From a virus (taxonomy: Duplodnaviria; Caudoviricetes): a stretch of 64,000 nucleotides of DNA. Numbering within the stretch: position 1 is the first letter of the stretch; every line of letters begins with the position of its first letter. Positions 3,314 to 53,200 of this stretch are shown piece after piece. A program made the position numbers and the translations under genes. The notes below the pieces were generated by a model. It made no database searches. It was not told the origin of the DNA and saw nothing but the letters and a program-made list of their open reading frames with translations. The stretch covers positions 1 through 64,000 of the IMG/VR virus record IMGVR_UViG_3300005544_000001; one strand, given 5' to 3'.

Positions 3314-3787
3314 TTGGCGCATAGAAGTTTCGTGTCCACGGTCAAAGACAAGCCAATCGTTCTAAAGGTCGAGGTGCCTGGCAGCGGAAAGCCACTCAAC
3401 GGCGCCGAAGGAGACGAAGCCGCCGCAGAACTCGGGCTGGCCCGCGTTTCAAACAAGCTCGTCAAAACCATGGCCCGGCTGGGCGTTGACATTGAACTGG
3501 CCGGCATCGTTCACACCGACCGCGGGTTCGCCTTCGCCACGAAGGAAGGGCTGTGGGAATGCGCCGATGCGCTCAAAGGGAAAATCAACAAGACCGCCAA
3601 GCTGGAGGATCTTTGCGAAATCGCGACGGCCCTCGGGAAGATCGCCAAAGGGATCTCCGTCCTGTCAGGTAAAAACATCGGCGGCGAGGACGCCCCGAAA
3701 CCACCTGACAAACCGCGGCAATCCTTCATCCCAGGCCAGACGGTCGAATTTCACCAGCATACGCACGTCCACAACGAAAAACCATGA
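3314..3787 (+). CDS. Hypothetical protein, possible terminase small subunit
   Basis: 157 aa helical ORF near terL. The small-subunit role is a positional guess only. Confidence 0.5.
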   Translation: MAHRSFVSTVKDKPIVLKVEVPGSGKPLNGAEGDEAAAELGLARVSNKLVKTMARLGVDIELAGIVHTDRGFAFATKEGLWECADALKGKINKTAKLEDLCEIATALGKIAKGISVLSGKNIGGEDAPKPPDKPRQSFIPGQTVEFHQHTHVHNEKP

Positions 3788-4107
3788 GGTTGCTGGAGAA
3801 AATCAATCGCTTCCCCCCGCGCATCGTTCGGTTGATCGCCGCCGATCTCACGACGCGACAGATCGCGCTGCGTTCCGGCATCCCGCGTTCGACCGTCCAC
3901 CAAGTGTTTTTGAAGGATGACTGGAACCAGGTCACGAATGAAGTCACTGACCGAATTACCATGGCCTGTGGCGTCAACTTACTCACGCACAAGCGGCACA
4001 GGCAGAATCTAAAGAATAGGTTGCGGTCGATTGGTAAACTCGCCAAGAGGATCAAGCCGACCCAACGGAAGATGTTGAACCGGCTGCTATCGGTCAAAGC
4101 CGCATAG
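3784..4107 (+). CDS. Helix-turn-helix DNA-binding protein
   Basis: LTTRQIALRSGIPRSTVHQVF is HTH-like. ATGA coupling to the upstream gene. Confidence 0.6.
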   Translation: MRLLEKINRFPPRIVRLIAADLTTRQIALRSGIPRSTVHQVFLKDDWNQVTNEVTDRITMACGVNLLTHKRHRQNLKNRLRSIGKLAKRIKPTQRKMLNRLLSVKAA

Positions 4108-5695
4108 ACACGAGCCTCGGCTTCCCGTCCCCGACCGTGGGTTTGAACGCGGTCTCCGCAAGCTCCTGAGCGCCCTCCATTAGTAAAACATAGGTCGCCG
4201 CGTCAAGAATGTGGCGATGGATGCCGGTCACTTTCCCGTCCTTGTCGGTGGCGGCGTTCTCGATGGCGGCGATCAATCGCGGACACTGGCTGCTGATGAA
4301 ACAGCGTTTTTCTTTGATGAGCCGGCGCAGCAATCGTTGCCGCGTTAAAACGCTCCCATTCGGTTTGTGAACGCCTTGAAAATTTATCGCTCCGTGAGTG
4401 CTGGCCAAAATCTCAAGATTGTCGAAACCGATCCCGGTCGGACGGTACACCGTCAAAGCTGAATCGTCCGCATAATGCGTCCAACCGAACTTGCGTGCGT
4501 ACAGCTTTTCAAGATCAGTCATCAGTCTCAGCATTTCCACTCCCAGATCAGAGATTTTGATCCGTTCCCCGATTGACTCGATTTCCCTCAAGAACATCCA
4601 GACAGGCCACTCGACATCATTCAGGCTTACGATGCGCTTCTCTACAATCGTGAACCCGTGATTAACGCTCCCTCCGATGTCGGCTCCGGTGTAAAGGTCC
4701 GAAGTCGTTGGCGATAACTCGATCTTCTCACCCTTTTCAGGGTCCTCCTCGATGACGTGAATGTCGCGACTGAACACGTCGGCGAAGATTCGGTTGGCGC
4801 CGCCGCTGCCGGCCACCCATTTGCCCTCGACGTCTCGCGCGTACTCGCCCGGGTCGCCTGAGTGCAGGGCCTTGCGATCCTCGATTTGATCCGTAGTCAG
4901 CCCCTCGTTGTCCTCGAGGAAAAATTCCATGAGACGAAGCGATTTCTCGAATTTTTCCCGGCAACGTTTGATCTCCTCGCCCTGCGCCCTGTTGTTGTCG
5001 GCGCCGGTCAGCGTCACGGCGGACCAGTCGCGTTTGTACCAGAACTTGTATATCCACGATTCCTCGCCCTCAACGGCCGGGTTGGTGTCCGCCAGCCACA
5101 GATGCTGCCACGGTTTCAAATGGGGCATTCGAAGCTGCTCCCACGAGACAGTGAAGATCCGCGGGTCCTTGAAGTTGCCCAGCTCGATCAGCCGGATCCC
5201 GCTCCAAAATGAATCCTTGAGCTTGGTCTCGATCTCGCAGTCATGTTCAACGGACAGAATGCGTATCTCGCTTTCCCCGCCCCACGCGTTGCTAAACCGA
5301 CAAAACGGCGTGCGCGTCCGACCGTCAGTCTTGAACCCCGGGATCCCGTCGCCGTCGCGCGTCGTGTATTCGAACCCGATGCCGGCATCGATCCACCGCG
5401 GCAGCACGTATTCCGTGAGCCGTTGTTGCGTCCCTGAGTCCGTGGTGTTGCGCAGTGTCTTGTTGATGATGGCAAACCGGCCATTTGGTGTCTCCCAGAG
5501 GTGGCGGATCATCCTGTCGTCGCACCCGAAGCTCTTGGCGCTGTAACGCGGGCCGCTCACCAGAACCGCCGTTGGCGAGTTCGGATGATTTTTGCCGGCA
5601 TCCTGCTCCGTCCCGATGTTGAACAGGATTCGCTGCTTTGTGTAGAGCCAGTCCGGGCTCCATGGCTGTGACATGCCGGAAATCTGCCTTGCCAT
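4094..5695 (-). CDS. terL: Terminase large subunit (start probably 5695 or 5674)
   Basis: Deviant Walker A GPRYSAKS, Walker B-like IRLIELG, coupling motif ADTNP, nuclease GADIG and C-terminal HILDAATY. Confidence 0.85.
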   Translation of the reverse strand: MARQISGMSQPWSPDWLYTKQRILFNIGTEQDAGKNHPNSPTAVLVSGPRYSAKSFGCDDRMIRHLWETPNGRFAIINKTLRNTTDSGTQQRLTEYVLPRWIDAGIGFEYTTRDGDGIPGFKTDGRTRTPFCRFSNAWGGESEIRILSVEHDCEIETKLKDSFWSGIRLIELGNFKDPRIFTVSWEQLRMPHLKPWQHLWLADTNPAVEGEESWIYKFWYKRDWSAVTLTGADNNRAQGEEIKRCREKFEKSLRLMEFFLEDNEGLTTDQIEDRKALHSGDPGEYARDVEGKWVAGSGGANRIFADVFSRDIHVIEEDPEKGEKIELSPTTSDLYTGADIGGSVNHGFTIVEKRIVSLNDVEWPVWMFLREIESIGERIKISDLGVEMLRLMTDLEKLYARKFGWTHYADDSALTVYRPTGIGFDNLEILASTHGAINFQGVHKPNGSVLTRQRLLRRLIKEKRCFISSQCPRLIAAIENAATDKDGKVTGIHRHILDAATYVLLMEGAQELAETAFKPTVGDGKPRLVSMRL

Positions 5696-16423: not shown

Positions 16424-18855
16424 AGTTCGACCAACTCGACAACCAGCCGTGCCTGCTCCCCCAGGTGAACGAGGAATCGTGTGAAAGCACGAGGCTACCG
16501 GTCCAGGAGGGGCGCCTCGAGCTGCGTCCCGAGGTTGCCGTCGTGGCAGTTCTGGGCACCGTACAATATCGAACCTTCCTGATCGCCAACGGCGTCGAAC
16601 GCGAGGTCACATCCGGGCTCAGCTATCGCTCTGGCAGCACCGTAATCGCAGTCATCGGCGCCATCGGCGGCAACGCCACGGGCATCTCGGTCGGCATAGT
16701 CACGATCTCGGTCGAATGGCAGGGCCTCGAGGCGTTCGCCCAGCTTCAGGTCGTTGACTCCTGCGACAACATTTCGAACGGGCTGGAGATCGTCATCGAC
16801 AACTCGGAGTCGATGAATCAGGCGTTTGGCGCGCCATACGGCACCAAGCTTGATTTCGCGAAGTTCCTCGCCAAACAGTTCGCCGGAGAGGTCGACGTGC
16901 GCAAGGACATCGTTGGGCTGACCACGTTCGCCGTGTCGGGCCAGGTTGTGGCGCCTTTGACGGCCGATAACATCGCCGTCGGGACCGCCATCATGGGTGT
17001 CGGCTTCGTTCCGGAGCAGACAGACATCCATGCGGGGCTCGAAACGGCCATCGCGGAACTCGCCGCGGCGAACGTCGACCGCCGCGTTATCCTGCTGATC
17101 ACGGACGGCCAGCATAACGACGACATCGAGCCGCTGCAGACAGCCCTCCAGTTCCGGTCCGGCGGCGGGGTTCTCATCGTCATTGGCCTGCGCGCCGGCC
17201 TGGAGGCGTTCATGCGCCTAGAGAAACTCGCCAACGGCGGTTTCTTCATCTCGGCCTACGACGGGCCCACCGCGGAGGACGCCAAACGTTACGTGAGCGG
17301 GTTGAAAGGCTACCTGTGCGCTGGCAACTGTTGCCCGGAAGGTGACGTCATCGTTGGCCAGGGCAGGCTCGACTACGAGGATTGGCTCAACTGGGATAAC
17401 ATCGGAAACGTCGACCTGATTGGGAACGGATTTTACGATCTTATCCCAGGGCACGGTCTATTCGTGGATCTCGTGGGAAGCTCGGCGCCATGGCAGGGCG
17501 GGTTGATCAGCAAGAAATCGTTCACGTTCCAAAACGGCGTCAACTACAAGCTGAGTTACAAACTGGCCGGCAATCAGCGCGCGGACGCCACGGGCTACTC
17601 GGTCAAGGTCAATGCCGGCAGCGTCGCGACCGCCACGCACGCGATGAACGATTGGCGCCAGGACTTTACGACCTACGACTTGAGTTTCGTGGGCGATGGC
17701 ACTTCCGGCCAACTGATCTTCATCCAGGAAACGGTCTCGCCTGCGCCGGCGGCTCAAGCCTTCGGGGTTTTGCTTGATGACGTCACGCTCATCAACGATG
17801 ACACGGACGAAATTCTGTTCACCGAAAGTTTCGACAACGAGAATCTGACTTACGTGCCGCCCGCTTGCGGCATGGGCACAGTCTACGGACAGGGTTACGG
17901 TGGCGGTTACGCCTACGGGACGTGCTGCTACGGTTACGGGTGCCTGGCTGAACCGGTCAAACAGCAGAACCCGGATCCCATGCCGCCAACGGATCCCGAG
18001 ACGGAGCCCGATCCGTTCTGGATCAGCACGCAGTCCTACACGGCAAGCTGCCCCGTTGGAACCACGGGCGCCGACGTGACACGCTCGGCGAGCTACAAGA
18101 GTTTCATCAGCGCGGCCGATGCCAACGCAAAAGCCCTGGCGCTGGCTCAGACCGCAGCCGAGGCGGCGCTGAACTGTGTGAGCCCGCCCGTCAACGGCGA
18201 TCTCATCAACATGCACGCCATCCGCGGCAGGCATACGACAAAGATAGGCTTTGCCGCATTCGGAAAGACGTCCGGCGACGTCTGGAACGCATGGAGCGCC
18301 TCCGATTACAACAACGATACCCTGTTGAAATCGGACGGGACCGCCTCCTTCGTCACCATCCGAAAGTGTGAAGTCGGCGATTTCACGCAAACGGAACTCG
18401 GCGCGGTCAATTTCGATGTGTCGCTCGACCATCCGGACGCCATGTACAAGATGGGCCAGGCGTTCTATCGCAACGATTCAATCACGCCGAAGGACGAGGC
18501 GCTGTTCTTCGACGGATTACCCGAGGGCAATTATGAGGTCTACGTTTACGGCCACGGCGCTGACAACGCGCTGCAGGTCGGCCATTACCAGGTTCGCACC
18601 GGTAAACTCACAGGAGATCTGGCATCTGGATTCGTGCTCGATCCTTTCACCAACACCGTTTACCCAACGCTCGACACGTCGAACACGGACAGCTACCTCG
18701 ACACCGCCTGGGCCGAAAACGTCCAGTTCGTGAAATACTCAGTCACGATCGGCGCAGGGCAGACCGGCATCTGCATCATTTCCGCCAGCGCATCCGGCGT
18801 GGATCCCGGGCGAATCAGCGTGCTCATGGGCGTGCAGATTCACCGCTTGACATAA
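16420..18855 (+). CDS. vWA-domain structural protein with additional beta-sandwich domains
   Basis: MIDAS-like IVIDNSESM, TDIHAGLETA, ILLITDGQHN, then carbohydrate-binding-like segments and a YTASCP...ANAKALALAQ module. Confidence 0.75.
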   Translation: MKFDQLDNQPCLLPQVNEESCESTRLPVQEGRLELRPEVAVVAVLGTVQYRTFLIANGVEREVTSGLSYRSGSTVIAVIGAIGGNATGISVGIVTISVEWQGLEAFAQLQVVDSCDNISNGLEIVIDNSESMNQAFGAPYGTKLDFAKFLAKQFAGEVDVRKDIVGLTTFAVSGQVVAPLTADNIAVGTAIMGVGFVPEQTDIHAGLETAIAELAAANVDRRVILLITDGQHNDDIEPLQTALQFRSGGGVLIVIGLRAGLEAFMRLEKLANGGFFISAYDGPTAEDAKRYVSGLKGYLCAGNCCPEGDVIVGQGRLDYEDWLNWDNIGNVDLIGNGFYDLIPGHGLFVDLVGSSAPWQGGLISKKSFTFQNGVNYKLSYKLAGNQRADATGYSVKVNAGSVATATHAMNDWRQDFTTYDLSFVGDGTSGQLIFIQETVSPAPAAQAFGVLLDDVTLINDDTDEILFTESFDNENLTYVPPACGMGTVYGQGYGGGYAYGTCCYGYGCLAEPVKQQNPDPMPPTDPETEPDPFWISTQSYTASCPVGTTGADVTRSASYKSFISAADANAKALALAQTAAEAALNCVSPPVNGDLINMHAIRGRHTTKIGFAAFGKTSGDVWNAWSASDYNNDTLLKSDGTASFVTIRKCEVGDFTQTELGAVNFDVSLDHPDAMYKMGQAFYRNDSITPKDEALFFDGLPEGNYEVYVYGHGADNALQVGHYQVRTGKLTGDLASGFVLDPFTNTVYPTLDTSNTDSYLDTAWAENVQFVKYSVTIGAGQTGICIISASASGVDPGRISVLMGVQIHRLT

Positions 18856-18875
18856 ACGGTTCAATCGGGTTTTCT
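18843..18875 (+). promoter_or_regulatory. Promoter of the leader/RAMP/array locus
   Basis: CCGCTTGACA at 18843-18852, 17 nt spacer, TTTTCT, then ATG at 18882. Confidence 0.55.
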
Positions 18876-18881
18876 ACGGTC

Positions 18882-19052
18882 ATGCGTTTAGAGCCGCAAT
18901 GGTCCCTCCAAACACTTTGCACCCGCTGCCGTCTGGCGGCGATTTCAAATCAGCCGCGCTCTAACGTTCGGGAGTCGGGTGCTTTTCCAAATGCGCAGAA
19001 CGGTTTGGTTTGGTATGGCAAGCCCTCTGGCGCATTACTCCAAAACACATGA
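18882..19052 (+). CDS. Leader ORF (56 aa) in a structured leader, coupled to the RAMP gene
   Basis: MRLEPQWSLQTLCTRCRLAAISNQPRSNVRESGAFPNAQNGLVWYGKPSGALLQNT. Its TGA overlaps the ATG at 19049. Confidence 0.45.
   Translation: MRLEPQWSLQTLCTRCRLAAISNQPRSNVRESGAFPNAQNGLVWYGKPSGALLQNT
19002..19021 (+). repeat. Short GGY-NN tract upstream of the RAMP gene
   Basis: GGTTT GGTTT GGTAT GGCAA, four in-register pentamers of the same type as the downstream array. Confidence 0.65.
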
Positions 19053-19681
19053 AGACAGCAGAAAAAAAGCTCACTGCCATCGGCGGCGAGTCACCAACGA
19101 ACGGCGCACAGCATGGGATCGAACTTCAAATTCCATTCCGATGCGAAGTGACGGTTGAAGGTGTTGCTCCAATTCTTTTCCACGCGTGGAACGTGGAGAG
19201 CGTCGATTCAAAATCAAAAGCCAAAAAAGGCTCTGCCGAAAAGAAAAGTGACGACGTGGAAAGCTACGTTTACCGGAATGATGAAAAGGAGGTTTGCATT
19301 CCAGGCGAGTATTTACGAGGCGCGATCGTAAATGCTGCAAAATTCCAACAAGATCCTCGCAGCCCAAGGAAGTCGGCTGCTGATCTTTTCAAGGCCGCGA
19401 TCGTCTCGCTGACGCCGCTCGCTTCCTTGGGGGCAAAGGATTGGGATTATTTGGACAAGAGAAGGGTCACAATCCAGCGAAACGCGATAACACGCTGTCG
19501 CCCTGCGATGCGCGAGGGCTGGTCTGCAAAATTTATCCTCATGGTGAATTTGCCGGAGTACGTAGGTCAGGAACTTTTGAACGCTACCATCCAGCAGGCC
19601 GGAAAGCTGATTGGTCTTGGTGACTTTCGTCCGAGTTTCGGGCGATTCATCGTCACACGGTTTGTCGTGTTGAACGATTAA
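19049..19681 (+). CDS. Stand-alone Cas7/Csm3-like RAMP-fold protein (Vipr-like), 210 aa
   Basis: VTVEGVAPILFH (beta-1), VCIPGEYLRGAIVNAA (RAMP IPGxxLKGA-like motif), TRCRP, and a C-terminal Gly-rich loop GKLIGLGDFRPSFGRF. No other cas genes in the window. Confidence 0.8.
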   Translation: MKTAEKKLTAIGGESPTNGAQHGIELQIPFRCEVTVEGVAPILFHAWNVESVDSKSKAKKGSAEKKSDDVESYVYRNDEKEVCIPGEYLRGAIVNAAKFQQDPRSPRKSAADLFKAAIVSLTPLASLGAKDWDYLDKRRVTIQRNAITRCRPAMREGWSAKFILMVNLPEYVGQELLNATIQQAGKLIGLGDFRPSFGRFIVTRFVVLND

Positions 19682-19684
19682 TTC

Positions 19685-20184
19685 GGTGTCGGTGTGGTTG
19701 GGCAAGGCTCGGCGTGTTGAGGCTTGGTGCGGTGGCATCGAGATGTGGCCATGCAAGGTGTGGTTCGGTCAGCCGTGGCGCGGTCAGGTTCGGTCAGGCG
19801 CGGTTTGGTCCACTACGGTTTGGCCGGGTGGGGTGAGGCGCGTTCAGGTAAGCATGGGCGAGCTACGGTACGGTCTGGTTCGGGACTCGAAAGAGTCCGG
19901 TCGGGTGAGGTCGGGCGGGGTATGGCAGGGTGAGCTATGGCACGGTGGGTTTGGGTAGGATTGAGTCGGGTAAGGCAAGGCGGGCATGGGTATGGTACGG
20001 TTCGGGCGCGAAAGCGCCGGTATGGTTTGCTATGGCGGGGCCGGGCGTGGCCAGGTGAGGTTCGGCGGGGTGTGGTAATCCCAGGCACGGTCGGACGTGG
20101 TAAGCTTCCGCGCGGTGCGGTTCGCAATGGCAAGCTATGGTTTGGTGGCGGGGCGTTGCCTCTTGACAAAGGCTTCGCCCCGCC
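19685..20184 (+). ncRNA. GGY-NN pentamer array, candidate guide-RNA precursor
   Basis: Four tracts in unbroken 5-nt register: 19691-19730 (8 units), 19747-19881 (27), 19899-20003 (21), 20019-20143 (25). 62 of 81 units start GGY. Hairpins GGACTC-GAAA-GAGTCC (19883-19898) and GGCGC-GAAA-GCGCC (20005-20018), plus a terminal hairpin at 20147-20184. Confidence 0.85.
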
Positions 20185-20192
20185 TTCAGCAT
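20147..20192 (+). promoter_or_regulatory. Array-closing hairpin that also carries the -35 of the next operon
   Basis: GGCGGGGCG-TT-GCCT-CTTGACAA-AGGC-TT-CGCCCCGCC. TTGACA at 20163-20168 lies in the loop, and CAGCAT follows after an 18 nt spacer. Confidence 0.55.
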
Positions 20193-20203
20193 CAAGATTC
20201 CAG

Positions 20204-20950
20204 ATGACAGCAACTTTTAAACACAGCGGCGACCTGGGCGATATTATTTACAGCCTTCCGACAGTTAGGCATTTTGGTGGTGGGGATTTTTGGATCGCGG
20301 CTTCAAACTTCACGAGGGTTGAACTGACGCCAAACAACTGGCATGGCATTGACCGTTTGTTAGCCCGCCAACCGTATATAAGAAGCGTTCGCTCATATCG
20401 AATGGGAGAGTACGCGGTTTTCAATTTGGACTCGTTTCGCGGCCCGCTGAATCTTGCGCTTCGAAAACATGAGCAGATGGACAAGAGCCTCTGCGATTGG
20501 GTTTTGGAGACCCACAACGTTCCCCTGACCGCGAAGGAGACCGCATGGCTCACCGTCGAGCCGAAGACCGTTGCTCCGGTCGTCATTAACCGCACGGGCG
20601 CAGGACGGACGCGCAACGCCTGCTATCACAATTTCAAATTTCCGTGGCACAAAGTCTGGAAGAAATACGGACGTGACGCGGTGTTCATCGGGACGTGGGC
20701 AGAGTACGAGATGTTTTGCGGATCGTGCGGCGAGGTGCCGTATCACGAGACGAAGGATCTGCTCGAGGCCGCGCAGGTGATTGCCGGCGCCAAACTGTTC
20801 GTAGGGAACCAGAGCGTCTGCCACGCGATTGCCCAGGGCTTGTTTCAGCGTGTCCTGCTCGAAGTCTGGGTTGAGGGCGCCAATTCGACGTTCCTGCGTG
20901 AAGGCGTGACGAATGGTTTCGATGAGAAGGTGGAGTTGCCTGAAATATGA
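20204..20950 (+). CDS. Glycosyltransferase family 9-like (heptosyltransferase-like)
   Basis: True start MTATFKHSGDLGDII; LLEAAQVIAGAKLFVGNQSVCHAIAQGL. The track ORF extends spuriously into the array. Confidence 0.8.
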   Translation: MTATFKHSGDLGDIIYSLPTVRHFGGGDFWIAASNFTRVELTPNNWHGIDRLLARQPYIRSVRSYRMGEYAVFNLDSFRGPLNLALRKHEQMDKSLCDWVLETHNVPLTAKETAWLTVEPKTVAPVVINRTGAGRTRNACYHNFKFPWHKVWKKYGRDAVFIGTWAEYEMFCGSCGEVPYHETKDLLEAAQVIAGAKLFVGNQSVCHAIAQGLFQRVLLEVWVEGANSTFLREGVTNGFDEKVELPEI

Positions 20951-44276: not shown

Positions 44277-47200
44277 ATGCCAGCCGTTTTTGTTGATGAG
44301 GAACCGCAGGCCCATTTCGTAGACGACGCAGGGCCAGCGGAGGGTCGCGCCAAGTTCCTGGAAGATCTGCCGGCGCCGACACCTCCACCCATTCCCGTCG
44401 AGCAGATAAGGACGATCCTTGAACCTGGCGTCACAGAGGGTAAAAGCGCCGAACAGGCCGACATTGAAAGGGCCAACAAAATTGGGGCCCCGCAGGTCGA
44501 GCTGAACAAACAGTCTGCGCCGTTCAATCTGCGCGAGCACCTTACGCTGGCCCGGGAGCGGCCGAGTGACAAACTCCAGTACTGGGCGCAACGGATCCCG
44601 TGGAGCCCCGCGGGTATCATTCAGCCATTGGAGGTGAAATCAGCGGCGGACCGTATTCAGGCCGGGATCGGAGAACCGAAGGATTTTGAGAAGCTGTCCG
44701 ACTTCATTGTCTCGGCGGAGAGACAGCAGAACGCGGGAGTGATTAGCAAGGCCGTTGACATCGCCACTGCGCTGCCCGCTTTCGCTGCGGAATTTTCAGC
44801 CACAGGCGGAGCGTTCACGGGGACCCGCGCGGCCGCACAAAGGGCAGGTCTTGCCGCCCTGGAAGAGTCCGCGAAAGCCGTTGCCGGAAAGGCCGCGCGC
44901 TACGTGGCAACGAAAGCTGCCGAGGCACCTGCATTTATTGCCGGTGCGGCTGCGCAAACTCTCGCCAACCCGAAGCTCATTGCTGAGAACTTTGTCCAGA
45001 ACGAGCTGAATCGCGTGAAGTTTAAGGAAGGCGATCAGGGCCAGATTGAGACGATCATAAAGGACGACGACGTCGGCTTTGCCGGGAACCTGCGTAACTC
45101 TTTCCTGAAGGCCGGCTTTGACATCGGCACAGAATACGCGGGCGAACTCCTTCACCCACTCAAGGCGGCCATCGCTGCGCGGTGGATGAATGCGGTGCCA
45201 GGGCGAACGCCTGGAGCACTTCAGAAGGCGCTTGATGCTAGCGGATGGCACGGGGTGCTGGGCGAAATGTTTGAGGAACGGTTGAACGAGTTTGCGGCAC
45301 CGCTCTACGGCGAGAATTATCAACCACCAAGCCCTCAGCAGCTCATGGCTGAGGCGCTGGCTTTCAGCGTGCCAGGCACTGCTGAACGGCTTTTATCTGG
45401 CCGCGGGCCAGCTATCGAGAAAGGTAAACAAAATGCCACTACGCAAAGGCCCGAACAGCCACGGACACAACGTGGAGAAACTGATGCAGGAATACAACCA
45501 GTCGGGGAAAATCGGGTCAACGCACCCGTCGAGCAGCCACCACGCACTCCGGATAGCGAACGCAATCGCGTACCGCCTGGAGAAGTCGCCCCGCAAGTCG
45601 AAACTCGGCCGGGGGCGCCGGTAACGACGAAGGCGCCGTTGGCTGTTCGCATCCTGACGGCTCGAGGTGTAGCGCCGGACGTCGCTGAATTTGTGGCCGC
45701 GCGCGCAGGCGACAAGCCTGCCAACGAGACGGCGGAGGATTACCGGACGCGCGTCAACGGGCTGCATGACGAGTTTGGATTCAAGGTCCCGACCGAGGTA
45801 AACCCGGCCAGCAGCGAGGCGAGTCTCCGGGCGGCTGCTGCGGCCGAAGGATTCACCGAGGAACAGATCCAGAACACGCTCGCGAAAGCGAAGGCTGCCG
45901 ATACCGCCGTTCACGCGGCGAACACGGCGCTTATCGGTCGGATTCAGGCGGCGCGACAGCCAGCGACAGTCACGCCTGAACCACCAAAGCCCCAGCGCGT
46001 GGACGTCCCTGGCGTCGGCGCCGTGAACATTCAATATCCGGCTGGTTCTGTCCGTTCCGGGGAGGACAAGGCCGGAGACAAGTGGCAGGTCACGATGCCC
46101 GCGCACTACGGCGACATCGTTGGCACGAAGGGCAAGGACAAAGATCGCATCGACATCTATGTCGGGCCGAACGCCCAGGCGCCGGGACCGGTTTACGTCG
46201 TCAACCAGTACAATCCGGAAACTGGAAAGTTCGATGAGCACAAGGTGATGGCTGGCTTTCCGTCGTTGCCAGATGCCACGGCCGCCTACGACGCGGCGTT
46301 TTCTGACGGGTCTGGACCTGCACGAAGGCAGTCCGTTCAGACATTCTCGCCGGAACAATTCCAGACGTGGCTGAAGGAAGGTGATCATTCGAAGCCGGCC
46401 GGCGGCGAGAGGATCGATTTGCAGCCGCCCCCGAAGCTCGTAACTAAGCCGGTCGCTCCTGCAACGAAACCACCAGTTCCTGAGACGAAAGCACCAATTC
46501 CTGCAACGATCCCTCCTGTTGGTGCAACAAAACCGCCTGTTGGTGAGACGCAAGCCCCGAAATCTGTAACGGGTGAGACACAACCGATTTCACCGCCAGC
46601 CGCTCCACCGGCCGGTGCTCCACCCGTTGTGGATGTTACTGCCAAACCTAGCGCGACTCGGGCGCCGGAAGCGGCGGCGGTGACTCAGGCAAAGCTCGAC
46701 GACATACGGAAGCGTCGCGAGGCGATTCAGGCAAAGTTGAGGAAGAAGCTGGGTCAGACCAACATCAGCGTTGATCCAGAGATCGCGACGCTCGTCGCTG
46801 AGCTGGCGGTCAACTACACCGAGGAGGGCGTCGTTCGTTTCGCCGATTTCGCGCGCCGGGTTAAGGAAGAGCTTCCGGACATCTGGGAGCGACTCAAGCA
46901 CTACCTGGGCGGCGCGTGGCGCACGGCGGGCGAGCAGAACATGGAATTGGACGAGGTAACCCGCGAGCAGGGCAAGGCTGCGATTCAGGCCCTCGAGGCT
47001 GAGACACCCCTCCCAAAAGAGGAAGGGGTCAAATCGCCAGAAGTCCAGCCCACCAAAAAGGAGGGCGAGGAGAATACCGAAGTCGGCATCATCCAAGACG
47101 CGCATCGCGTTGCACAGAACGCTACCGATCCGCTACGGGCGTACCGCGAACTGGTGCGGCTTTACAGCGAGCAGCCCCGACTTGGCACCCGCACGGTCAC

Positions 47201-50200
47201 GAGCAAGACCAATCAGGCTTACTCGACGCCCCCTCCGCTTGCCTACCTCGCCGGCCGACTGGCGGACTTGCGGAACGGAAAAGTAATCGCAGAGCCAACG
47301 GCAGGAAACGGGATGCTGCTGATTGAGACCAATCCTACGGCCAGGTTGCTTGCGAACGAACTTGACGCTGATCGGGCTGATCGGCTGCGCAAGAGCTTTC
47401 CGCGTGCAGACATCAGCCAGATGGACGCGTCCACCGAGGACTTCCACAACTACTTAGATGGATGGTCGCCAGACCGGGTGATCGCCAACCCGCCTTTTGG
47501 CGGCGTCATCGAGGAAGGAACCTCTCAGACAAAACGGTTCCCGATCATCAATGCCTCGACGAAGAAAGGCGAGACGCCAAGCATCGATCTGGCCATTGCC
47601 CTCAATTCTCTCGATGCAATGACGCAGGATGGCAAGGCAGTAATCATCATCGGCTCAAAGACCGGCAGCATGGCCGCTAACTTCGGCAGCGATGCCGCCC
47701 GTGCCCAGGCTTACCGCAGGCCCGAGATGCTGGAATTTTTCCGTCGATTCAACGTCAAAGACTGGTTCACGGTCAGCGGGGATCTCTACAAGAAGATGGG
47801 CGCCGGTTGGCCTGTGGATGTTATTGTGATCGACGGAAAGACGCCCACGCCGTTGCCATCAGAAGGCGGGCTGCAACGTCCGTGGATTACGCCGCCGCCA
47901 GTTTTCAACTCGTGGCATGACCTGGAAGGGAAATTAAATGATGCTCAATTACAACCAACAAGAGAGCCTAGCCCGACGCCTGGCGGAAGCAGTGGTGCTG
48001 AAAGTGCTGGCGCAGGCCAGGGAGGACCCGCAGTCCGCCCTGGGGGAACTCAAAGCCCTCGTCCACCACTTGGAAACGAACCCACCGTTCCTGCGCCTGG
48101 ACGACCTCAAGAGCCGACACGCCCTGGAATCCCAACTGGTAGGCCTGCCGTCGTTCCAGAGAGCCGTCCAGAACTTCCAACAGGAGGCGGTGGACTGGGA
48201 CAAGCTTCCGCCGAAGGATCCGCTGAAATTAACCCGGGCATGGCGCGTTTGGTCGAGGGAAAGGTTGTTCTAAACGTCCCGTATCGATCGGTGTCGAAGA
48301 ACGCCGATCCGAAATTGGTCGTGCCGGCGAACATAGCGGACTCCATGCAGCGTGCTGTGCGCCAGTTGGAAATCGACGTTGGCAAGCCGGTAGATGAATA
48401 CCTCGCCGAGAAGATGAAGTGGACGCGCGAGGAACTATTTAAGCGATTATCCAGCGCACAGATCGAGGCGGTTGCGCTGTTCGTTCGGAACTCTGAAAAC
48501 CGCGGCACTGGATTGATCAACTCCGACCAGACAGGTGTAGGTAAAGGCCGAACGGTCGCAAGCGTGATGGACTACGCTCCGAAGGTCGGAAAGATTCCGA
48601 TCTTCATCACCCAGGGAAAACATCTCTACACGGACATGGCGGGGCGCGACCTTCCAAGCATTGGGAACAAGAAGTTTAGACCATTTATCACCGACTCTGA
48701 TTACGAGTACGAGAACGGAGAGGGCACCAGTATTTCAGACAAGCCCGGCGCAGCAGCGCAACGTGAAGCCATGGAAGAGATCGCGCGCACCGGAAAGCTC
48801 CCGCCCGGCGTTCATGGCATATTCACGACCTACTACCAGTTGCAGGCGGACAAGCCACAGGGTTACAGCGAAACCCCGCAGGCGCGCGCACGGCGCAAAC
48901 GCAGGCTGACAGCCCGTCCTGACGGTCCCAGGTTGGCCATGCTGCGCGCGCTGGCTCCGAACGCGATCTTCGTGTTGGACGAGGCGCACCAAGCTGCGGG
49001 CATCGACTCGGACGTTGGTCTCTCGTTGCAATCCATCCTGCCGAATGCCGCCGGGGTCTATTACTCATCGGCGACATTCGCAAAGCGACCAGACAACCTG
49101 ACTCTGTACGCAATCGGCACCGCTCTTCGGCTTGCTGGTTTGAGCCGCACTGAGATGACCGAGTTGTTCAAGAGCGGCGGTGTCCCGATGCAGCAGGCCT
49201 TGACATCGATGCTTGCCGAGGAAGGCGAATTCGTTCGCCGCGAACAGGATATGTCGGGCGTGAAATTCGACTTCACGCCAGTCAGCTCTTCGCCCGAGGA
49301 AGAGGCGCAATCTGCGGACACTTACACCAGTTTCCTGCGCGACCTGCACGACATCGCAGATCAGGTCAACGCCGCTGCTGCCGGTTTCGTCGATGACGTC
49401 AACCAGACGCGCCCGGACGAGGCGCAGGTTGATCTGTCCGGCGTAAACTTCGGTTCACGACTGTTCAACTTGTCGAACCAGTACCTGTTCAGCCTTCGGT
49501 CGGATGCCACGGCAAACGAGGCGATTGCCGCACTGAAACGCGGACAGAAACCGTTCGTCGCAGTGTTCAATACAATGGCCGGTCCGATAGCCAACCTGCA
49601 CGAAATGGGTTTGCCTTTGGATTTCGGCGGTTTGTTGCGCCGGGAGATGGCGAAAATGCTGGAAGTCACAATTCGAGATCCGCTCGAAGACTCCGGAAAG
49701 CGCGTCGTCATCCTGAAACCAGAAGACCTTCCAGACGGCGGAGCCAAGTACCGTCAAATCGAAGAGCAGATCAAGGCGACCGACTTCGGGTCCATGCCTA
49801 TCTCTCCAATTGATGCGATCAAAAAGAAGATTCAGCAGGCAGGATATTCCATCGGCGAAATCACCGCGCGCGACGGTGAACTCACCGAAGAAGGCGGTGT
49901 CGTCAAAATTAGCAAGCGCGACCGCAGCACGCGCAACAGGATACTGCACGAGTACAACAATGCCGACGTAAAAGGCGGAAAGGCTGTCACTGGGCTGGAT
50001 GCGCTAATTGTCAATGGCTCCGGAAGCACCGGGCTTTCCGCCCATACCGATCCAAAGTTCAGGGATCAGCGGCAGCGGTACATGATCGTCGCCCAGGCAG
50101 CACCCGACATCAACGTGTTCATGCAGATGATCGGTCGCGTAATGAGGTTCGGACAAACGAGCCTGCCGGCCTATAAGGTGCTGATGACGAACCTCGCTGC

Positions 50201-53200
50201 AGAGAAACGGTTTATGACCATGCTTCGGGGCAAGCTCACGAGCCTGAATGCAAACACGTCCGCAGAGACAGAGAGCGGGATCACACAGGGCGGCTTGGCC
50301 GACGATGTGTTCAATGCAATCGGCGATGAGGTTGTCGGCGAGGTCATGTTGGCACACCCAGACTTGGCGCAGTTGGCGCGCATCCCGTTGCCGAACCCGA
50401 TGGAAGCTGACAGTTTCGAGAACTTCGCGCGTTACGCGACCGGTAGATTCGTCCTCCTTCCGAATGACGATGCGGCTCGGTTGTGGCGGGACATCTCAGA
50501 GATTTACGACGCCCGCATCCGCGCGCTAGACGAGGCAGGCGAAAACCCATTGAAAGCCAACGTGCAGGATCTGCGCGCGAAAACGACCGGTATCGCGGAA
50601 ATAGTTCCCGGCACTGGAAGCACCGCCTTCGACGGTCCAGTGAAGCTTGAGCGCATCGACATCAAGCCCGCAAAGAAGCCCTACACCCACGAGCAAGCTG
50701 TAGCCGAGTCAGAGAAGAACTCTGACGAGAACGAGAAGGCCGCAGAGGAATGGTTTGCCAAGCAAGCAACGGCCATGCGCGAGCGCATCGAAACGATGGA
50801 AAAGCGCGAAGCCAAACAGGAACAGATTGATCGCACTCGGCAGACATTGCAGGCCGTGTACGAGACGGTCACTGCGGCAAGTCGCCTGCTTGGCCAAACG
50901 GTCGGCGTGGATCCTGGAGGTACCGGGCACCCTCTGTTCTATGCAGTCCCAATCGCGCTCGAACTCAAATCTCGTGACCAAAGCGATTTTAGCTCGAACT
51001 CGAAGCACACGCTCAAGCTGGCGACAAACACGCTTCGGCGCACGATTCACCTACCCCTCTCGCAACTGAACAGCCTAAAGCTGGTCGAGGAATCCGATCC
51101 TGCCGAACAGTTCGACAACAACAGCGAAAGTACGAGCACGCGCTACGTCGCCACCGGCAATCTGCTGAAAGGCTATGCCGCAGCAAAGGGGATGTCGGCC
51201 CACATTACCAAGCCCGCGGTAACGATGTATTCCACTCGCCGCGGGGCGCTCAAGACGGGCGTGTTGCTCGGAGCCGCTTTTAATCCGAGTACCGGCGTTG
51301 CTGGTGGACGCGCAGCGGTGAATAAGCCTGACGACTTCGCGACGCTGATGGATCGGCGGACGCCGATGGCCGCCGGTCCCGTTGAAATCACCGGGACCAT
51401 CGTCACCGTCCCGTCAGGCACCTCAACCAGGAACATTTGGGGCGACCGGACTTTTCAGAATTTCTTTCAGCAGAGTCCAGTTGAGCGAGCAGGCCAGTTT
51501 CGAGGCGTCATGGATCGTCGTATGGCCTTCGACTTCTTTCGCTACCTCGCGAGCAAGGGGTTGTCTATTGTCGAGAAACAGAGCGAGGGCACCACTCGGG
51601 CGATCGAGTTTGCTGAGCCGCCGCCTGAAACCACGGCATCCGACGTCGCAAACAAGATCGCCGACGCCTTGGGGAATCTGAAGTCCGGCCAAGAACCAGG
51701 CCAACTTCACCTTTTCGGCGTCATTCCCGCCGTCTGGGACAAGGCGATCGAGATTGCCCAGGGCATCATCCGCGCCGGCGGCAAGGTGGCTGATGCGGTG
51801 GCAAAGGCCATCGAATACATCCGGGCAAACCACAAAGGCGACTGGGACGAGGCAGGCGCGCGCGGAGCGCTGGAGTCTGCGAGTCAGGGCAAGCCGGCCA
51901 CGGAGGAAGGTCTTACTGAGCCAGCCGAAGGCGAACAACCGCCCGTCGTGGACGATCACTGGGTCCCGACGCAGGTCAAAGGCATGACGTGGTACGTGCG
52001 CGACCGGGACAAACTCTCCCCGGAGAGCACCGCGCGCTCAATCGATGCCGCGGAGGCTGCTTTCACGCAGGCTGGGCTCAAGTCCGAGCGCCGGACCATG
52101 TTCGACACGGGAGATAGCCAGACCAAAAGCATCCTGTTCATTCCGGAGACGGAGAATGCCGACGAGAAGGGGCGCAAACTGGCCGAGGTGCTCGAGCGCG
52201 AGATTGCGACCCAGCGGGAGGCCGGCAAGGGCGCCGACCACGTCTCGACCCTCATCAATTCCGTGCGGGAGGGCTTCGACCAGCCCGGATCCGCCTTCCG
52301 CCAGATGAGTCAGCAGGTCCGGAACCGACTGTTTGCGCTCGCCCAGGAGGAAGCGAGCTGGCGCGGCCGTGCCCTGCGTGCGCTGGCCAACTCCAAAGCC
52401 GACATTATCCGCATCGCGCGCAATGTCGACGTCTACCTGCAGCGCATCTATTCGACGGCTTTTGCTGACAAGGCACCGGGCGCCCCCGCGGGCGCCAGCG
52501 ACATCGCTGATGACCTGCGGGCGTCATTGCGCGAGGTCCTGACCGACGAGGAAATTGACCGACTGCCGGAACTCATCGCGGATCCAGCGCAGCGCGAGCG
52601 CATCAAGGCCGCGCTCAAAAAGGCGCTGGAAAAGGTGGCACCGAAAGGCGCTAAACGTTTTGGCCGCAGGAACTGGCGCACGATCGAATCTCTAATCCAG
52701 GGCGGCATCCTTGATGACACCGAATGGTTCAAGGAACTGGCGCGCAAACGGGGCTGGAAGGTCCCGACTGACGCCGAGATCGAACAGATGCGCAAGCTGG
52801 CCGACGAGGAGCAGGCGCTTCGAAAACCGACCGACGCCGAGCTGGCCAAGGTCGGAGAGGACCCGAAGGCGCGCGAACGGCTGTTGGCCGACATCGAGGC
52901 GGCCACCAGGGAGACGCGGTTCAAGCTGCAGAAGCGCCTAGCGGTGATGTGGAGCGAGATGACGAAACCGGTTTCTCTACGGGACTATTGGGCGCAAAGG
53001 CAGAATAACGCCCGGTTCCTGAACGAGCTGATGACGGCCAACCTGCTGTTCCGGGCGTCGTTCGTCAGCAAGCAGGCTATCGACGTGGCGACACAGTGGT
53101 TCTGGAGGATGCCCATGCGCGCCGTCGCACAGGCATTGACCCTGCGTAAGAACGATTTGGCCGCTGGCAAGCAGGTTCGATTCTGGGATGACGCCCAAGC

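What the first reader, a model, noticed from the sequence alone, without database searches (positions are those of the whole stretch)
19049..20184. Solo RAMP/Cas7-like gene followed by a GGY-NN pentamer RNA array: candidate minimal phage RNA-guided system
Seen in sequence: a 210 aa ORF with RAMP-type motifs (IPGEYLRGAI, C-terminal GLGDFRPSFGRF) stops at 19681. Within 4 nt a ~500 nt non-coding tract begins, made of about 81 pentamers in strict register (62 GGY plus a variable NN). The window has no cas1/2, nuclease or CRISPR repeat-spacer array. Established: Cas7-family RAMPs polymerise on guide RNA with a fixed nucleotide period. Inference: the protein filaments along the RNA, binds the constant GGY and presents the NN pairs as a non-contiguous targeting code, for example against competing phages or for gene silencing. 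From memory this matches the recently reported phage VIPR systems; I cannot verify that here. The cassette has its own promoter and sits between tail and glycosylation genes like a moron.
Basis: partly seen in the sequence, partly recalled or inferred. Interest (0 to 1): 0.95.

Follow-up and report, generated by a model that had tools for sequence, protein, structure and literature searches.

The report
Phage VIPR system: Vipr plus vrRNA array
This is a real but already described kind of phage RNA-guided system (VIPR): a small Cas7-like protein gene followed by an array of GGY-NN pentamer guide RNAs, here in a complete 78-kb soil-type phage, with simple hairpins separating the guides and no accessory gene.

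Summary
The 210-aa ORF (19049-19681) is followed after 4 nt by about 470 nt of GGY-NN pentamers. I count 83 units, 64 of them canonical, in four blocks. Two GAAA-tetraloop hairpins separate the last three blocks and a terminal hairpin closes the array. No other such tract exists in the 64 kb.

A search among 95 related loci plus this phage's genome recovers the published one-nucleotide-skip code: 72 real hits against 1 decoy hit.

VIPR was published in 2026 preprints, so this is a new member of a known kind. Local peculiarities:
- simple hairpin tails
- 21-27 units per tract
- no vap gene

No target of this phage's own guides was found.

The parts
18882..18985 (+). Conserved upstream motifs: inverted repeat ATGCG (18882-18886) / CCGCA (18894-18898), invariant TTTGCAC (18916-18922), and GGGTGCTTT (18977-18985). 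Candidate promoter, operator or leader; function not shown.
   Evidence: Alignment of eight close loci. No sigma-70 consensus was found here.
19002..19021 (+). Upstream mini-tract of four canonical GGY-NN units, 28 nt before the ATG. It sits where relatives carry a 7-41-unit upstream vrRNA, so it is probably a vestigial upstream guide or a Vipr-binding site in the leader.
   Evidence: Upstream tracts of relatives have real code matches.
19049..19681 (+). vipr gene, 210 aa. A RAMP with an RRM core, a thumb hairpin (about residues 134-154, with R151) and a G-loop (GLGDFRPSFG, residues 189-198).
19691..19735 (+). vrRNA repeat block A: 9 units, 8 GGY, register 1.
19747..19881 (+). vrRNA repeat block B: 27 units, 21 GGY, register 2. 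It ends with GGTTC before the hairpin.
19883..19898 (+). Tail hairpin 1: 6-bp stem with a GAAA loop. An identical hairpin is present in L003.
19899..20003 (+). vrRNA repeat block C: 21 units, 16 GGY, register 4.
20005..20018 (+). Tail hairpin 2: 5-bp stem with a GAAA loop. An identical hairpin is present in the syntenic sister phage L133.
20019..20148 (+). vrRNA repeat block D: 26 units, 19 GGY, register 4.
20147..20184 (+). Terminal G+C-rich hairpin that closes the array: 9-bp stem, loop containing TTGACA at 20163-20168, weak U-run. Relatives end their arrays with clear intrinsic terminators.

Best explanation
The locus is a VIPR (Viral Interference Programmable Repeat) system carried as a small cassette in a complete 78-kb tailed phage.

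Proposed mechanism, inferred by homology:
- The + strand is transcribed from upstream of 19049 to the terminal hairpin near 20184.
- This gives the Vipr mRNA and a roughly 470-nt precursor of GGY-NN repeats.
- One Vipr protomer binds each pentamer. Residues H45 and D192 read G1, R151 and F193 read G2, and E87 and R194 read Y3. These are the equivalents of SUSP1 H17, D177, R138, W178, E71 and R179.
- The bound protomers form a helical filament that hides the GGY and exposes the NN dinucleotides.
- The NN pairs base-pair with double-stranded DNA, skipping one target base per unit (NNx NNx ...). This silences transcription of the bound gene, most likely in a competing phage, prophage or satellite in the same host.
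- The GNRA-tetraloop hairpins, each preceded by GGYNC-G, take the place of the SUSP1 pseudoknot tail. They cap or delimit three to four guide tracts.

Shown here: protein homology and fold, conserved RNA-contact residues, the gene-array association, RNA-level covariation of the hairpins, and validity of the one-base-skip code among relatives.

Inferred only: transcription, processing, filament formation, DNA silencing and the targets in this phage.
For: Protein:
- phmmer against PDB gives a single real hit, 36pp 'SUSP1 Vipr protein', E 3.5e-9. A 70-sequence profile gives the same hit at E 3.5e-17 over nearly the full length.
- SUSP1 H17, E71, R138, D177 and R179 are invariant in the alignment, and W178 becomes F. 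The structure paper shows these residues read GGY, and the D177A and R138A mutants lose silencing.

Array:
- 83 in-register units, 64 GGY, unique in the window.
- Same-strand tracts lie next to the homologue in 8 of 9 IMG/VR loci (the ninth is only 924 bases), 6 of 7 metagenome-contig loci and 77 of 79 genome loci. The two genome exceptions are cut at a contig end on one side.
- Sister phage L133 is syntenic, with an 88% identical Vipr. It has a different and shorter repeat tract but the same hairpin.
- 18 tail hairpins from 8 loci are 100% paired, with 18 double-sided changes; 0 of 500 shuffles reach this. They include G·U pairs that would be C·A on the other strand.

Code:
- A one-base-skip search among 95 related loci plus the phage genome gives 72 hits of score 8 or more, against 1 with reversed guides. 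Examples are 28/30, 23/24 and 18/18 NN matches, running through degenerate units.

Context:
- The record is a complete virus with terminal repeats and has no Cas1.
- The cassette sits in different neighbourhoods in different phages.
Against: - No target of this phage's own guides was found, so function in this phage is untested.
- There is no expression data.
- No recognisable sigma-70 promoter lies upstream, and the terminal hairpin lacks a good U-run.
- Tracts between hairpins are 21-27 units. The papers describe 9-16 repeats and guides under 100 nt, so processing or internal segmentation must differ or is unknown.
- About a quarter of the units (19 of 83) are degenerate.
- No vap accessory gene is present.
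Confidence: 0.9

Rival explanations
1. A genuine Vipr-vrRNA pair whose role here is not inter-phage warfare. It might regulate the phage's own or host genes, or titrate itself through the 4-unit tract in its own leader.
For: No competitor target was found. A 4-unit GGY-NN tract lies 28 nt before the ATG.
Against: The own genome has no match above shuffled controls: best 16/20, the same as the controls. Relatives' guides hit other mobile-element loci, including a vipr gene. The published natural targets are competing elements (10.64898/2026.10.15.759431).
Confidence: 0.07
2. A decaying or inactive cassette. The protein gene is intact, but the array is eroding and no longer guides anything.
For: 19 of 83 units are degenerate. 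The upstream tract is reduced to 4 units. No targets were found.
Against: Degenerate units lie inside perfectly matching guide segments in relatives, and the papers note internal degeneracy as normal. The region 18856-20203 is identical in the nine further contigs whose DNA was read. The hairpins are intact.
Confidence: 0.02
3. The G-rich tract is coding, or is a DNA-level element. Candidates are the 337-aa ORF 19937-20950 that gene callers report, a G-quadruplex region, or a recombination tract.
For: Long ORFs are open across it. Gene callers called ORFs inside such arrays.
Against: The periodicity is 5, not 3. The hairpins covary with strand-specific G·U pairs. The sequence is not conserved between phages with 76-88% identical Vipr. 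The downstream GT9-like gene starts at 20204.
Confidence: 0.01

Closest known systems
Type II VIPR of Escherichia phage SUSP1 and the Pseudomonas fulva prophage (bioRxiv 10.64898/2026.04.26.720920; structures 10.64898/2026.04.26.720927; PDB 36pp)
   Same: - Homologous protein of about 200 aa, with the same GGY-contacting residues.
- GGY-NN pentamer RNAs on the gene's strand, both upstream and downstream of the gene.
- A structured element after each repeat tract.
- Phage-borne, with no cas genes and no CRISPR array.
   Different: - Only about 25-28% protein identity.
- No vap1 gene after vipr.
- The tail is a simple 4-6-bp GNRA hairpin, not a pseudoknot.
- The SUSP1 leader sequence that precedes each vrRNA is absent; the hairpin abuts the next tract.
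- 21-27 units per tract, against 9-16.
Other VIPR types I and III-VII (same preprint)
   Same: Minimal loci built on the same repeat code. The preprint names six vap genes and assigns them to types II-VII, so I infer that type I has none. Variable array architectures are reported: staggered, hammerhead-interspersed and single-guide.
   Different: The type could not be assigned, because the classification data and figures are not held. No hammerhead or other Rfam family matches the tract, so the separators here are not the described ribozymes.
CRISPR Cas7-family RAMPs (Csm3, Cmr4, type VII Cas7)
   Different: 11-18% identity. No cas operon, no repeat-spacer array and no Cas1. The period is 5 nt with three bases sequestered, not 6 nt with one flipped.

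Membership tests
VIPR | Protein homologous to characterised Vipr | tested here: met
   36pp_D SUSP1 Vipr: E 3.5e-9 with the single sequence and 3.5e-17 with the profile, residues 33-206 against 5-189. tblastn also finds SUSP1-type phages.
VIPR | Residues that recognise GGY (SUSP1 H17, R138, D177, W178, R179, E71) | tested here: met
   All are invariant in the 8-sequence alignment except W178, which becomes F, also aromatic. Their roles are taken from the structure paper.
VIPR | Adjacent tandem YNNGG / GGYNN repeats (at least 4 units) on the gene's strand | tested here: met
   83 units with 64 GGY, starting 4 nt after the stop. The same holds in 91 of 95 homologous loci.
VIPR | GGY conserved while NN is hypervariable between related systems | tested here: met
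   Arrays of phages with 76-88% identical Vipr share the GGY scaffold and the hairpins but not the NN strings or the length. Contigs with a 100% identical protein are clonal and therefore uninformative.
VIPR | Structured, conserved tail after the repeat tract | tested here: met
   Hairpin tails with compensatory changes, 0 of 500 shuffles reaching the observed covariation. The form differs from the SUSP1 pseudoknot.
VIPR | Targets obey the one-nucleotide-skip rule | tested here: inconclusive
   For relatives in this clade the rule holds: 72 real hits against 1 decoy hit. For the window's own guides no target was identified.
VIPR | vap accessory gene next to vipr (typical, not universal) | tested here: not met
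   The array follows the stop codon directly. The next gene is a GT9-like enzyme in a glycosylation cluster. No conserved neighbour is seen in close relatives. The papers say 'typically' and report stand-alone genes.
VIPR | vrRNAs are expressed and co-purify with Vipr; dsDNA binding and silencing | not testable with these tools
   Needs sRNA-seq, pull-down and reporter assays.
CRISPR-Cas class 1 effector (Cas7) | Encoded in a cas operon with a repeat-spacer array | tested here: not met
   No tandem array and no Cas1. The neighbours are a VWA protein and glycosylation enzymes.

The most novel reading that the evidence does not exclude
This soil-phage clade may use a VIPR array architecture not yet described. 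It would be one precursor in which long tracts of 20-27 units, each probably holding two or more guide segments, are punctuated only by GNRA, UUCG or UUAAUU hairpins, with no ribozymes, no pseudoknots and no per-guide leaders. It would work without any vap partner. That would imply a host-nuclease or hairpin-capping route to guide definition, and DNA footprints of up to about 80 bp.
Probability: 0.3. Interest if true: 0.5.

Novelty: new member of a known kind. Interest (0 to 1): 0.35.

Why it matters
It confirms that reading raw sequence alone recovered a VIPR locus.

It adds a complete, clonal and widely sampled 78-kb environmental phage to a family studied so far mainly in E. coli and Pseudomonas elements.

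It gives a compact natural variant: a 210-aa protein, simple hairpin tails and no accessory gene. Such a variant could be useful for comparing how guides are delimited.

The search among related loci is independent computational support, from environmental MAGs, that the one-base-skip code and vipr-versus-vipr targeting extend beyond the published clades.

It is not a new kind of system.

Tried and rejected
Targets of the window's own guides:
- Own genome: the best 10-unit match is 16/20, the same as shuffled guides.
- Eight 9-unit seeds (18 specified bases) were planned against IMG/VR, but only seven scans were run, because one scan had gone to finding relatives. They gave 0, 0, 0, 1, 1, 2 and 2 hits. 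None extends beyond the seed, which is chance level.
- The block A hit lies in a phage integrase, in wobble phase. In the metagenome collection the same seed gave 21 hits scattered over unrelated genes, so I treat it as chance.
- A seed with 24 specified bases from block B gave 0 hits in metagenomes.
- A 14-unit pattern from block D with up to 3 mismatches gave 0 hits in 5 genomes carrying relatives and in 401 Phycisphaerae genomes.
- The window's guides against 95 related loci reached only 6-7-unit background matches.

Other checks that led nowhere:
- Rfam at E up to 10: no hammerhead or other family in 18700-20400.
- Pfam: nothing for the protein.
- TRF does not detect the tract, which is too degenerate.
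- Folding the whole tract is dominated by G·U pairing and is uninformative apart from the hairpins.
- Host: no tRNAs. Most large proteins have no PHROG. There is no close phage in GenBank. Relatives cannot be drawn for a virus record. A single-protein scan of genomes found nothing.
- Type assignment was impossible because the supplements are not held.
- Contigs with an identical Vipr were identical throughout, so they give no information on NN variability.
- One search was an empty script.

Full report
**What is in the sequence.** An ORF of 210 codons runs from ATG 19049 to TAA 19679-19681. Four bases later the first GGY appears, and GGY-NN pentamers continue to 20148.

Parsed in register, the tract has four blocks:
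- A, 19691-19735: 9 units, 8 canonical.
- B, 19747-19881: 27 units, 21 canonical.
- C, 19899-20003: 21 units, 16 canonical.
- D, 20019-20148: 26 units, 19 canonical.

A and B are separated by 11 irregular bases. B and C are separated by a 6-bp GAAA hairpin (19883-19898). C and D are separated by a 5-bp GAAA hairpin (20005-20018). A 9-bp G+C hairpin (20147-20184) closes the tract.

Period-5 power for G is about five times higher here than anywhere else in the window. No other run of 7 or more in-register GGY units exists on either strand of the 64 kb. 'Strict register' should read 'four blocks in three registers'.

**The protein.** Pfam has nothing. PHROG 4652, of unknown function, matches at 1e-19.
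- Against PDB sequences the only real hit is 36pp, 'SUSP1 Vipr protein', at E 3.5e-9. With a 70-member profile the E-value is 3.5e-17 over nearly the whole length.
- In an alignment with the SUSP1 gene product read from the phage record, SUSP1 H17, E71, R138, D177 and R179 are invariant, and W178 is replaced by F. These correspond to window residues H45, E87, R151, D192, R194 and F193.
- The structure preprint assigns exactly these residues to recognition of G1, G2 and Y3. It also shows that D177A and R138A abolish silencing.
- The family is large: 7,433 clusters at 90% identity and 1,532 clusters at 50% identity with E of 1e-3 or better.

**The gene-array association.** Same-strand pentamer tracts lie next to the homologue in:
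- 8 of 9 IMG/VR loci; the ninth locus is only 924 bases.
- 6 of 7 further metagenome-contig loci; the seventh is a 932-base contig that ends right after the gene.
- 77 of 79 loci from bacterial genomes and MAGs. The two exceptions are cut at a contig end on one side.

In the roughly 4 kb of flanks per locus such tracts are otherwise rare. The neighbouring genes differ from phage to phage, so the unit behaves as a mobile cassette.

Sister phage L133 is a 78,147-bp contig with the same VWA and cytidylyltransferase neighbours and an 88% identical Vipr. It has a shorter array with different NN strings, but the same GGCGC-GAAA-GCGCC hairpin and a similar terminal hairpin.

**RNA-level evidence.** In the eight closest loci the tracts are punctuated by hairpins of the form GGYNC-G, then a stem that starts GG and ends CC, then GGY. 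The loops are GAAA, GCAA, GUAA, UUCG or UUAAUU.
- Eighteen such hairpins are 100% paired. Three pair positions change on both sides (18 cells), and 0 of 500 shuffles reach this. Pairing collapses when the partner is slid.
- Several pairs are G·U, which would be C·A on the opposite strand, so the functional molecule is + strand RNA.
- No Rfam family, including the hammerheads, matches.
- Relatives end their arrays with clear intrinsic terminators. The window's terminal hairpin has only a weak U-run.

**Does the published code apply to this clade?** I extracted 236 tracts (4,055 units) from 95 related loci and the phage genome. I then searched them against the same set under the one-base-skip rule, using 6-unit exact seeds followed by extension.
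- Real guides gave 72 hits of score 8 or more. Reversed guides gave 1.
- Examples are 28/30, 28/30, 23/24, 18/18 and 18/18 NN matches, often with G/C at the skipped base as expected for wobble positions in high-GC genes.
- One guide from L008 hits inside the vipr gene of L079 and L080. This echoes the report of vrRNAs aimed at rivals' VIPR systems (10.64898/2026.10.15.759431).
- Matching segments are 8-15 units long, run through degenerate units, and occupy only part of longer tracts. The window's 21-27-unit tracts therefore probably hold more than one guide segment each.

**Targets of this phage.** None was found.
- The own genome gives no match above shuffled controls, consistent with the papers' finding of no self-targeting.
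- Exact-seed scans of IMG/VR and the metagenome collection gave only chance-level hits that do not extend.
- Mismatch-tolerant scans of five related genomes and 401 Phycisphaerae genomes gave nothing.
- In the other direction, a guide from a Steroidobacteraceae MAG (L064) matches the phage's AAA_23/SbcC-like gene at 71002-71030, 19/20 in wobble phase. However, 16 of 200 shuffles do as well, so this is only a hint.

**Context.**
- The record is a complete 78,391-bp IMG/VR virus with terminal repeats, 58% G+C and no Cas1.
- The protein is exactly identical on 17 contigs. The nine further contigs whose DNA was read are identical to the window over 18856-20203.
- The nearest genome-encoded homologues reach at most 65% identity and are mostly in Phycisphaerales and other Planctomycetota MAGs. 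That is a weak host hint.
- No gene lies between vipr and the array. The next gene (from 20204) heads a glycosylation cluster. Close relatives share no conserved neighbour, so the system has no vap.

**Comparison and verdict.** All sequence-testable defining features of VIPR are met. The accessory gene, typical but not universal, is absent. Expression and binding cannot be tested here.

Differences from the characterised type II systems are low identity (about 25-28%), simple hairpin tails, no per-guide leader, long tracts and no vap.

The literature already reports seven types with varied arrays, and a language-model survey found 99 VIPR-like clusters (10.64898/2026.10.21.760802). NCBI-sourced proteins at 78-81% identity exist, so this clade was probably within reach of the discoverers' PSI-BLAST.

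I therefore call it a new member of a known kind. There is a moderate chance that its array architecture is an undescribed variant.

Noticed in passing
window 19002-19021 and 18882-18985: A four-unit GGY-NN mini-tract lies 28 nt before the vipr ATG, where relatives carry a full upstream vrRNA. Further upstream, three motifs are conserved in eight loci: ATGCG/CCGCA inverted repeat, TTTGCAC and GGGTGCTTT. None of the close loci has a Shine-Dalgarno sequence before the ATG.
   Followed up: partly
G000 71002-71030 (- strand; outside the window, L123 7002-7030): A guide from a Steroidobacteraceae MAG VIPR locus (L064 3087-3151) matches this phage's AAA_23/SbcC-like gene (PHROG 1499) at 19/20 NN positions in wobble phase. 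Shuffled guides reach this score in 16 of 200 trials, so it is only a hint that the phage is itself a VIPR target.
   Followed up: partly
L057 2301-2435, L074 2372-2466, L076 2358-2432, L008 2893-2962 and others: Guides in Planctomycetota and other MAG loci have near-perfect one-base-skip matches in the flanks of other VIPR loci. One guide matches up to 12 loci. The L008 guide hits inside the vipr gene of L079 and L080. This looks like an inter-element targeting network in environmental bacteria.
   Followed up: partly
window 19937-20950: The 337-aa ORF that runs from inside the array into the GT9-like gene is an artefact of the G-rich tract. The likely true start is ATG 20204. Gene callers made similar false calls in relatives, for example a 173-aa 'gene' in L013 and a 337-aa call in an ENA contig.
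   Followed up: partly
window 20163-20168: A TTGACA hexamer sits in the loop of the terminal hairpin, and the motif CTCTTGACA is conserved in sister phage L133. It may be the -35 box of the downstream glycosylation operon.
   Followed up: no
L010 (Phage DSL-LC04, OR003939) 3650-5022: The Vipr homologue of this isolated phage (58% identical) is annotated as a 'helix-turn-helix transcriptional regulator'. It has a roughly 300-nt upstream GGY-NN array with hairpins and an overlapping 147-aa downstream ORF that could be a vap.
   Followed up: no
L108 and L112: Acidimicrobiales and Microlunatus MAG loci carry very long downstream arrays, with about 130-135 GGY units in one register.
   Followed up: no
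window 18856-20203 versus L124-L132: The whole cassette is base-for-base identical in the nine further contigs whose DNA was read, from several JGI and ENA samples. The phage is therefore clonal and widespread in those environments.
   Followed up: yes
window 44277-55244: A single ORF of 3,655 codons. Most large proteins of this phage have no PHROG match, so it is a poorly charted phage lineage.
   Followed up: no
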